Source of the DNA: Escherichia coli
GTDB lineage: Bacteria; Pseudomonadota; Gammaproteobacteria; Enterobacterales; Enterobacteriaceae
DNA length: 64,000 bases
Direction: 5' to 3' (one strand)
Assembly: GCF_024502345.1 (NCBI RefSeq)
Contig: NZ_JALDNN010000001.1
In this document: positions 20,048 to 20,654 of the stretch, in pieces
Numbering within the stretch: the first letter of the stretch is position 1
Layout: each line of letters opens with the position of its first letter
Position numbers and translations under genes: made by a program
The notes under the pieces: generated by a model
Told to the model about the DNA's origin: nothing
What the model saw: only the letters and a program-made list of their open reading frames with translations
Database searches by the model: none

Positions 20048-20654
20048 TTATAACACCATCTGAGCCATTTTCTGATAATTCAATCTGTCTGCTGTATCAC
20101 CGGGCAAGTGGTATTGTTTATTACGATAAAAAGCGGTGTCAGTAATCATTACGGCGGGAATATCGTGTTGCCAATAATTCAGGTGGTCAGAGAAATCAAT
20201 ACCGGGAATAAACCATGGGGCATTCATAGAATAAACAGATAAATCCCGGGATGATAACAATGCCGTTTTTACCTGACGAACGGCGTTGATATCCTGTATT
20301 CTGCCGACCAGGCAATAAAGTCCCCCCGATCGGGATAAAGCCAGGACATTGCGGGTAAGGGTAATCCTGGCTACCAGGCGCAGAGTCGTAATAGCCAATC
20401 GGGGACGCCCTGCGCGGTAACTCTGGCACCGCTACTGACAAAGAACTCTTTTATATACTCTACGGACCTATTCAGATTATCAATATTGTCGGCATTACGT
20501 GGATGCACAGTTTGTGTAAGATAACGAACTGTTTTTTCTAATTGCTCAGGACTGACGTGTCGGGGCGTTGGCGGTAATGCAGTGACCCAGGGTTGGTAAA
20601 AATAATCAGAGGGAGTGAAATCAGAAACAATATAACAAAAGGAATTTTTTCCAT
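20048..20654 (-). pseudogene. yfbL: degraded yfbL-like M28-family peptidase remnant (frameshifted, probably internally deleted)
   Basis: Reverse strand from the ATG at 20654 encodes a signal-peptide-like MEKIPFVILFLISLPLIIFTN, then stops after 38 codons. Peptidase-like sequence continues in a second frame (SPEQLEKTVRYLTQTVHPRNADNIDNLNRSVEYIKEFFVSSGARVTAQGV) and a third (…FIPGIDFSDHLNYWQHDIPAVMITDTAFYRNKQYHLPGDTADRLNYQKMAQMVL, ending at 20048). The total span is about 600 bp, against roughly 970 bp for the 323-aa protein as I remember it. Confidence 0.6.

What the first reader, a model, noticed from the sequence alone, without database searches (positions are those of the whole stretch)
20048..20654. 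yfbL-like M28 peptidase remnant readable in three different frames
A plausible signal peptide (MEKIPFVILFLISLPLIIFTN) terminates after 38 codons. Peptidase-like sequence continues in a second frame and the conserved C-terminal region (…FSDHLNYW…YHLPGDTADRL…) is in a third. The metal-ligand-rich middle part of an M28 peptidase appears to be missing. This is the pattern of a pseudogene with at least two frameshifts and an internal deletion, not a sequencing artefact confined to one site.
Basis: seen in the sequence. Interest (0 to 1): 0.3.

Follow-up and report, generated by a model that had tools for sequence, protein, structure and literature searches.

The report
Decayed yfbL peptidase pseudogene in E. 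coli
This is the dead remnant of the E. coli yfbL (M28 zinc peptidase) gene, broken by a 326-base deletion and several small frameshifts; about 38% of complete E. coli genomes carry the same deletion and reference annotation already marks it as a pseudogene, so it is ordinary.

Summary
Window 20025-20654 (minus strand) is the E. coli yfbL locus, in the order nuoN, yfbM, yfbL', yfbK scar, elaD'.

Against intact 323-codon alleles (K-12 and strain Z142-7) the window copy has six lesions:
- a 6-bp gap in the poly-A/T tract just after the ATG;
- a 1-bp loss in a T6 run (20598-20602);
- a 326-bp deletion (junction 20401/20400, codons 88-196);
- two single-G losses (20352 and 20311/20310);
- loss of one copy of a 7-bp tandem repeat, GATGGTG (20054-20060), which creates a new stop at 20048-20050.

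Homologous sequence therefore reads in frames A, B, A, B, C. The 326-bp deletion removes four of the five metal-ligand positions and the catalytic Glu, mapped by alignment to aminopeptidase 1AMP.

This is not a sequencing artefact. The deletion junction is in 2036 of 5426 complete E. coli genomes, including BL21(DE3) and O157:H7, and 1237 genomes match the region at 99% identity or more. PGAP already annotates it as a "frameshifted" pseudogene. Two other Escherichia lineages carry the middle segment, so the intact gene is ancestral.

One mildly interesting lead: a 2025 preprint reports that yfbL knockout in K-12 gives phage N4 resistance. Interest is low.

The parts
20025..20654 (-). Whole yfbL pseudogene remnant (ancestral ATG at 20654-20652, ancestral stop TAA at 20027-20025)
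   Evidence: Collinear with K-12 yfbL L001:4126-5097 and Z142-7 yfbL L007:3126-4097. The same span is annotated as pseudo 'frameshifted' in strain C 236-04A.
20643..20650 (-). Poly-A/T tract just after the ATG (ATGGAAAAAATTCC). It is 6 bp shorter than in intact alleles and its length differs in every deletion allele examined.
   Evidence: Alignment of 8 alleles: gaps of 4, 5, 6 or 7 bp here. MOD1-EC7003 has A9 with an early stop.
20598..20602 (-). Frameshift 1: T6 run shortened to T5 (frame A to B). It causes the stop at 20538-20540 that ends the 38-codon ORF.
   Evidence: Shared with BL21, USMARC-49610 and SW07099; absent in O157:H7 and SL124.
20400..20401 (-). Junction of the 326-bp deletion (intact CDS nt 262-587, codons 88-196; frame B back to A). 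It removes H113, D133, E165/E166 and E195.
   Evidence: The junction is present in 2036 of 5426 E. coli genomes.
20352..20353 (-). Frameshift 3: loss of one G (CCCGGCA becomes CCCGCA; frame A to B)
   Evidence: Shared with BL21, O157:H7 and SW07099.
20310..20311 (-). Frameshift 4: loss of one G (GCCGTGG becomes GCCTGG; frame B to C)
   Evidence: Shared with BL21, O157:H7 and SW07099.
20054..20060 (-). Single remaining copy of the 7-bp unit GATGGTG. The O157:H7 allele has two tandem copies, so one copy was lost here, giving the new stop TAA at 20048-20050.
   Evidence: O157: GCTCA GATGGTG GATGGTG TTATAA; window and BL21: GCTCA GATGGTG TTATAA.
20048..20398 (-). 116-codon mechanical ORF (TTG start) that holds the C-terminal M28 fragment with H294 (YHLPGD)
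   Evidence: Pfam PF04389 scores only 19.5 bits, below the 21.3 cut-off, and matches profile positions 143-185 only.

Best explanation
Window 20025-20654 (minus strand) is a non-functional, vertically inherited pseudogene of E. coli yfbL, a secreted or membrane-anchored M28 zinc metallopeptidase of unknown substrate. A single ancestral 326-bp deletion removed codons 88-196, which hold four of the five predicted metal-ligand positions and the catalytic glutamate, and it also shifted the frame. After that the dead gene picked up slippage-type lesions: a change in the 5' poly-A/T tract, T6 to T5, two single-G losses, and loss of one copy of a 7-bp tandem repeat. Homologous sequence now reads in frames A, B, A, B, C and no product longer than 116 codons can be made. 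Shown here: the lesions, their positions, the fact that many independent genomes share them, loss of the ligand positions, and intactness in outgroups. Inferred: that no functional product is made, and that the deletion came first.
For: - Locus identity and synteny (nuoN-yfbM-yfbL-elaD).
- Intact alleles give one 323-aa ORF that matches Pfam Peptidase_M28 across profile positions 1-191 of 193 at 90.6 bits.
- The lesions were mapped by DNA alignment.
- The three-frame translations contain the homologous segments, and the repaired translation aligns at 82% and 96% identity to intact YfbL with residues 88-196 missing.
- Alignment to 1AMP places H113, D133, E165/E166 and E195 opposite AAP H97, D117, E151/E152 and D179, all inside the deletion.
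- The remnant falls below Pfam's cut-off (18.7-19.5 bits against 21.3).
- The same junction is in 2036 of 5426 complete genomes, the middle segment is present in 3311, and 1237 genomes match the window region at 99% or more.
- All six deletion alleles examined share the junction position (the junction-adjacent base(s) differ in O157:H7 and SL124) but differ in the small lesions. This fits the deletion coming first, followed by lineage-specific decay.
- Two other Escherichia species representatives hold the middle segment, so the full-length form is ancestral.
- PGAP annotates it as a frameshifted pseudogene.
Against: Nothing contradicts it. Three caveats apply.
- Expression was not tested, so a short peptide (the 38-aa N-terminal ORF or the 116-aa C-terminal ORF) cannot be formally excluded.
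- pN/pS within the deletion clade (0.57-0.67) is higher than between intact alleles (0.27), but it rests on about 10 substitutions and is not significant.
- The 3' halves of the USMARC and SL124 alleles look like intact-type sequence. The 'less decayed' alleles could therefore be recombinants rather than early stages.
Confidence: 0.95

Rival explanations
1. Sequencing or assembly artefact: the gene is intact in the organism, and homopolymer errors or a collapsed assembly produced the apparent frameshifts and deletion.
For: One of the lesions lies in a homopolymer run: T5 at 20598-20602.
Against: The 901-bp region is 100% identical in strain C 236-04A and at least 99% identical in 1237 complete genomes. 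The deletion junction is in 2036 genomes. Each small lesion is shared with independently sequenced strains such as BL21(DE3), O157:H7 Z866 and SW07099. A 326-bp deletion is not a homopolymer error.
Confidence: 0.01
2. The remnant is still functional: either programmed frameshifting rebuilds a shortened protein, or one fragment (the 38-aa hydrophobic peptide or the 116-aa C-terminal ORF) has taken on a new role.
For: The remnant has persisted in about 38% of E. coli genomes at 97-100% identity among deletion alleles. The ancestral start codon and upstream region are retained.
Against: Four separate frame changes would all have to be bypassed. The catalytic core is gone. The frame structure is not conserved among deletion alleles: O157:H7, SL124 and USMARC have different sets of indels, so neither the 38-aa nor the 116-aa ORF is conserved as such. 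The 5' tract length varies freely. The 116-aa ORF starts with TTG and falls below the Pfam cut-off. Persistence is expected for a young neutral remnant.
Confidence: 0.03
3. Selected loss rather than neutral decay. This concerns the cause, not the identity, and does not exclude the best explanation. The yfbL null allele spread because losing YfbL is advantageous, for example by reducing susceptibility to N4-like phages.
For: A preprint (bioRxiv 10.1101/2025.09.29.679331) reports that Keio yfbL and yfbO knockouts of K-12 BW25113 resist phage N4 and that plasmid complementation restores sensitivity. The null allele is at high frequency (2036 of 5426 genomes). yfbO is present in only 994 of 5426 genomes. 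An independent 5' poly-A frameshift in Escherichia sp. MOD1-EC7003 suggests recurrent inactivation.
Against: All 2036 genomes share one junction, so this is a single event whose frequency may only reflect clonal expansion of the large lineages that carry it. No strain carrying the natural allele has had its phage phenotype tested. The preprint result is not peer-reviewed and comes from one K-12 background. The complete-genome collection is heavily sampling-biased.
Confidence: 0.12

Closest known systems
E. coli K-12 yfbL (b2271; WP_000719999.1, 'M28 family metallopeptidase', 323 aa)
   Same: Orthologous locus between yfbM and elaD. About 95% nucleotide identity over the 630 retained bases. The N-terminal hydrophobic segment, the PEQLEKTVRYLTQTVHPR block and the C-terminal FSDHLNYWQHD / YHLPGDTADRL motifs are the same.
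   Different: The window copy lacks codons 88-196, has three 1-bp frameshifts, a 7-bp loss and a 6-bp 5' gap, and has no continuous ORF. The K-12 locus also carries yfbK and yfbNOP, which are absent here.
PGAP-annotated yfbL pseudogenes: N8A72_RS08055 (strain C 236-04A), K5T46_RS13395 (BL21(DE3)), ILQ34_RS08280 (O157:H7 Z866)
   Same: Same 326-bp deletion position. The C 236-04A copy is 100% identical to the window over 19900-20800 and the BL21 copy is 99.4-99.5% identical.
   Different: O157:H7 lacks the T-run frameshift and the 7-bp loss and has an extra A insertion. BL21 differs by one base in the 5' tract.
Vibrio/Aeromonas proteolytica leucyl aminopeptidase (PDB 1AMP), the archetypal M28 enzyme
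   Same: Intact YfbL residues 86-203 align to AAP 68-187 (E about 1e-9), with H, D, EE and D/E at the ligand positions. The C-terminal YH..D motif corresponds to AAP H256.
   Different: The relationship is distant. YfbL has Glu195 where AAP has Asp179. The window remnant retains only the last ligand (H294).

Membership tests
Peptidase family M28 (Pfam PF04389), functional member | Whole-protein match to PF04389 above the gathering score (21.3 bits) | tested here: not met
   The frame-repaired remnant scores 18.7 bits and the 116-aa ORF 19.5 bits, both matching profile positions 143-185 only. Intact K-12 YfbL scores 90.6 bits over positions 1-191.
Peptidase family M28 (Pfam PF04389), functional member | Co-catalytic zinc site: His, Asp, Glu, Asp/Glu and His ligands plus the catalytic Glu | tested here: not met
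   By alignment to 1AMP, H113, D133, E165/E166 and E195 fall in the deleted codons 88-196. Only H294 is retained.
Peptidase family M28 (Pfam PF04389), functional member | Single continuous reading frame across the domain | tested here: not met
   Homologous segments lie in frames A, B, A, B, C. The longest ORF is 116 codons.
yfbL orthologue by descent | Same genomic position and high nucleotide identity to intact yfbL | tested here: met
   It lies between yfbM and elaD downstream of nuoN, with about 95% identity to the K-12 and Z142-7 alleles over the retained bases.
Unitary (decayed) bacterial pseudogene | Disabling lesions relative to an intact orthologue, real in independent assemblies | tested here: met
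   Six lesions mapped. The junction is in 2036 genomes. Intact orthologues exist in E. coli and two other Escherichia lineages.
Unitary (decayed) bacterial pseudogene | Relaxed selective constraint | tested here: inconclusive
   pN/pS is 0.57-0.67 within the deletion clade and 0.27 between intact alleles, but only about 9-10 substitutions are involved. Free variation in the 5' tract and in the set of indels between alleles supports relaxation.
Unitary (decayed) bacterial pseudogene | No functional product expressed | not testable with these tools
   This needs RNA-seq, ribosome profiling or proteomics.

The most novel reading that the evidence does not exclude
The common yfbL null allele, together with the absence of yfbO in most E. 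coli, is a naturally selected loss of a host factor needed by N4-like phages. The slippage-prone 5' poly-A tract of yfbL would then make the gene a recurrently inactivated, contingency-like locus. This rests on one preprint, allele frequencies and one independent 5' poly-A frameshift in another Escherichia lineage.
Probability: 0.1. Interest if true: 0.4.

Novelty: already known. Interest (0 to 1): 0.08.

Why it matters
It matters little. It is a correctly recognised example of ordinary gene decay at a variable E. coli locus, already flagged as a pseudogene in RefSeq annotation of thousands of genomes. It has two minor uses. First, the allele series (the same deletion position in all alleles, different later slippage lesions) is a clean textbook case of stepwise pseudogene erosion. 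Second, if the reported role of yfbL as a phage N4 host factor holds, about 38% of sequenced E. coli are natural yfbL nulls, which is relevant to host-range prediction for N4-like phages.

Tried and rejected
- An exact scan of 100,044 GTDB species-representative genomes for the deletion junction (degenerate at the two variable bases) found nothing. In that collection of one genome per species, no representative carries the deletion allele, but this gave no dating information.
- A degenerate FSDHLNYWQHD-coding pattern found only two non-coli Escherichia representatives. Both hold the middle segment, but this is a thin outgroup sample. The pattern is exact-match, so other orthologues may have been missed.
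- pN/pS counting to demonstrate relaxed selection had too few substitutions to be conclusive.
- The promoter/terminator consensus scan of 19850-21100 gave nothing clearly above shuffled expectation (7 promoter-like sites against 3.8 +/- 1.8 expected, one weak terminator-like site on the opposite strand). No statement is made on transcription of the remnant or on read-through into yfbM.
- NCBIfam gave no family-specific model for YfbL; all hits were far below cut-offs.
- I looked for microhomology at the 326-bp deletion ends. At most a short ATT occurs near both ends, so no clear repeat-mediated mechanism is apparent (read).
- Programmed frameshifting and neo-functional ORFs were rejected because the frame structure differs among deletion alleles.

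Full report
**1. What is there**

The window is Escherichia coli chromosome. nuoN lies at 17895-19352 (+). It is followed on the minus strand by yfbM (19419-19922), the region in question, and then a broken elaD. A 901-bp query spanning the finding matches 5353 of 5426 complete E. coli genomes. It is 100% identical to strain C 236-04A (O125ac:H10) and at least 99% identical in 1237 genomes.

- The ORF MEKIPFVILFLISLPLIIFTN... runs for 38 codons (20654 down to 20538) and stops.
- A second frame carries YQPWVTALPPTPRHVSPEQLEKTVRYLTQTVHPRNADNIDNLNRSVEYIKEFFVSSGARVTAQGVP.
- A third frame carries VGRIQDINAVRQVK...FSDHLNYWQHD...YHLPGDTADRLNYQKMAQMVL*, ending at 20048.

**2. Exact anatomy**

I fetched two intact alleles: K-12-type (L001:4126-5097, 323 aa) and strain Z142-7 (L007:3126-4097). 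Z142-7 has the same short genomic context as the window. DNA alignment gives six differences in length. All are deletions in the window copy:

| # | Lesion | Window position | Effect |
|---|---|---|---|
| i | 6-bp gap in the poly-A/T tract right after the ATG | 20643-20650 | in frame |
| ii | T6 shortened to T5 | 20598-20602 | frame A to B; produces the stop at 20538-20540 |
| iii | 326-bp deletion of CDS nt 262-587 (codons 88-196) | junction 20401/20400 | -326 = -2 mod 3, frame B back to A |
| iv | loss of one G | 20352 | frame A to B |
| v | loss of one G | 20311/20310 | frame B to C |
| vi | loss of one of two tandem GATGGTG units | remaining copy 20054-20060 | new TAA at 20048-20050, upstream of the ancestral stop at 20025-20027 |

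The two-copy form of the GATGGTG unit is seen in the O157:H7 allele.

Three frames are therefore used, with four switches. The short IGYYDSAPGSQDYPYP segment is back in the ATG frame and AMSWLYPDRGDFIA is in the second frame.

The frame-repaired translation aligns to intact YfbL at 82% (residues 1-89) and 96% (residues 197-312), with the middle missing.

**3. What was lost**

Intact YfbL matches Pfam Peptidase_M28 over profile positions 1-191 of 193 (90.6 bits). It aligns to the archetypal M28 aminopeptidase 1AMP. Counting along that alignment, the correspondences are:
- AAP His97 to YfbL H113
- AAP Asp117 to D133
- AAP Glu151/Glu152 to E165/E166
- AAP Asp179 to E195
- AAP His256 to H294 (for the YfbL numbering)

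The AAP ligand numbering itself is from my own knowledge of that enzyme. The deletion of codons 88-196 removes all of these except H294. The remnant falls below Pfam's cut-off (18.7-19.5 bits against 21.3). Even if the frames were bypassed, no active peptidase could be made.

**4. Not an artefact, and not private to this genome**

- A 71-bp probe across the deletion junction is fully covered in 2036 of 5426 complete genomes.
- The 326-bp middle segment is present in 3311 genomes.
- The two classes add up to essentially all genomes that have the locus.
- The small lesions are shared with independently sequenced strains. BL21(DE3) has all of them, and SW07099 has all but the 7-bp loss.
- O157:H7 Z866 has the two G losses plus its own +1 A. 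It lacks the T-run change and the 7-bp loss.
- USMARC-49610 has the T-run change only.
- SL124 has none of the four small downstream lesions.
- The 326-bp deletion is at the same position in all six alleles, though the junction-adjacent base(s) differ in O157:H7 and SL124. This points to one ancestral event followed by lineage-specific slippage mutations.
- The 3' halves of the USMARC and SL124 alleles carry intact-type SNPs, so recombination with intact alleles is an alternative explanation for the 'less decayed' forms.
- PGAP already annotates the feature as a frameshifted pseudogene in every deletion-allele genome I opened.

**5. Polarity**

The deletion junction is absent from all GTDB species-representative genomes. 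Two non-coli Escherichia representatives found with a degenerate C-terminal pattern both encode the middle segment: L009 has a 325-aa ORF and L010 a 298-aa ORF. A complete M28 domain also cannot arise by inserting 326 bp into a fragment. Together these make the full-length gene ancestral and the window allele derived.

**6. Selection**

pN/pS between intact alleles, excluding the signal region, is 0.27. Within the deletion clade it is 0.57-0.67, but this rests on only about 10 changes. That is consistent with relaxation but not significant. The 5' tract length differs in every deletion allele, and the indel sets differ between them. This argues against any conserved reading frame, and so against programmed frameshifting or a new small protein.

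**7. Context and a possible reason to care**

The locus is structurally polymorphic:
- yfbO (with yfbN/yfbP, between nuoN and yfbM in K-12) is present in only 994 genomes.
- yfbK is present in 2538 genomes.
- Both are absent in the window, and yfbK has left a scar.

YfbL has no established function. One 2025 preprint reports that yfbL and yfbO knockouts in K-12 BW25113 resist phage N4 and that complementation restores sensitivity. If that holds, the common natural null allele could affect N4-type phage susceptibility. That is speculation here, because one ancient deletion carried by large clones explains the frequency equally well.

**8. Verdict**

This is an ordinary, already-annotated pseudogene. 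Interest is low.

Noticed in passing
window 21670-22726 (target duplications 21661-21669 and 22727-22735): A 1057-bp IS903-type (IS5 family) element is inserted in elaD. It has terminal inverted repeats GGCTTTGTTGAATAAATC and a 9-bp target duplication GAGTAGGGG; its transposase ORF is 21702-22670 (+). The closest genome (C 236-04A) has an intact target here but carries a different ISKpn26 insertion in elaD, at window position ~21473. elaD was therefore hit independently.
   Followed up: partly
window 21229 (elaD C-terminal fragment, 21043-21669, minus strand): There is a single-base loss in a T/A homopolymer (T6 to T5) relative to strain C 236-04A. It is the only difference in 4.47 kb, and it frameshifts the elaD fragment so that the ORF stops at 21159 instead of 21043. 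It could be a real extra lesion in an already dead gene or a homopolymer sequencing error.
   Followed up: partly
window ~20808-20972: This is a scar of yfbK (vWA-domain protein, 1728 bp in K-12). About 100 bp of the 5' end and about 50 bp of the 3' end, including the stop, are retained, and about 1.5 kb is deleted. Strain Z142-7, which has an intact yfbL, carries the same scar, so yfbK loss is separate from the yfbL deletion. yfbK is present in 2538 of 5426 genomes.
   Followed up: partly
window 19353-19418 (nuoN-yfbM junction): yfbN, yfbO and yfbP, which lie between nuoN and yfbM in K-12, are absent here. yfbO is found in only 994 of 5426 complete E. coli genomes, so the K-12 arrangement is the minority form.
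   Followed up: partly
window 20993-21026: A perfect 15-bp inverted repeat (TTCGACCAGTCAGCA / TGCTGACTGGTCGAA, 4-nt loop) lies between the yfbK 3' scar and the elaD stop. It is conserved in K-12 between the convergent yfbK and elaD genes and is probably a bidirectional terminator.
   Followed up: no
L010 2660-2680 (Escherichia sp. MOD1-EC7003 yfbL 5' end): In this otherwise full-length yfbL the poly-A tract after the ATG is A9 (A7 in K-12), giving ATG AAA AAA AAA TAA, an early stop. The 5' homopolymer tract therefore looks like a recurrent slippage site even outside the deletion allele.
   Followed up: no
L003 1829-3023 (BL21(DE3)): In BL21(DE3) yfbM is flanked by a truncated DeoR/GlpR regulator and yegS rather than by nuoN. 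The strain has a rearrangement breakpoint next to this locus.
   Followed up: no
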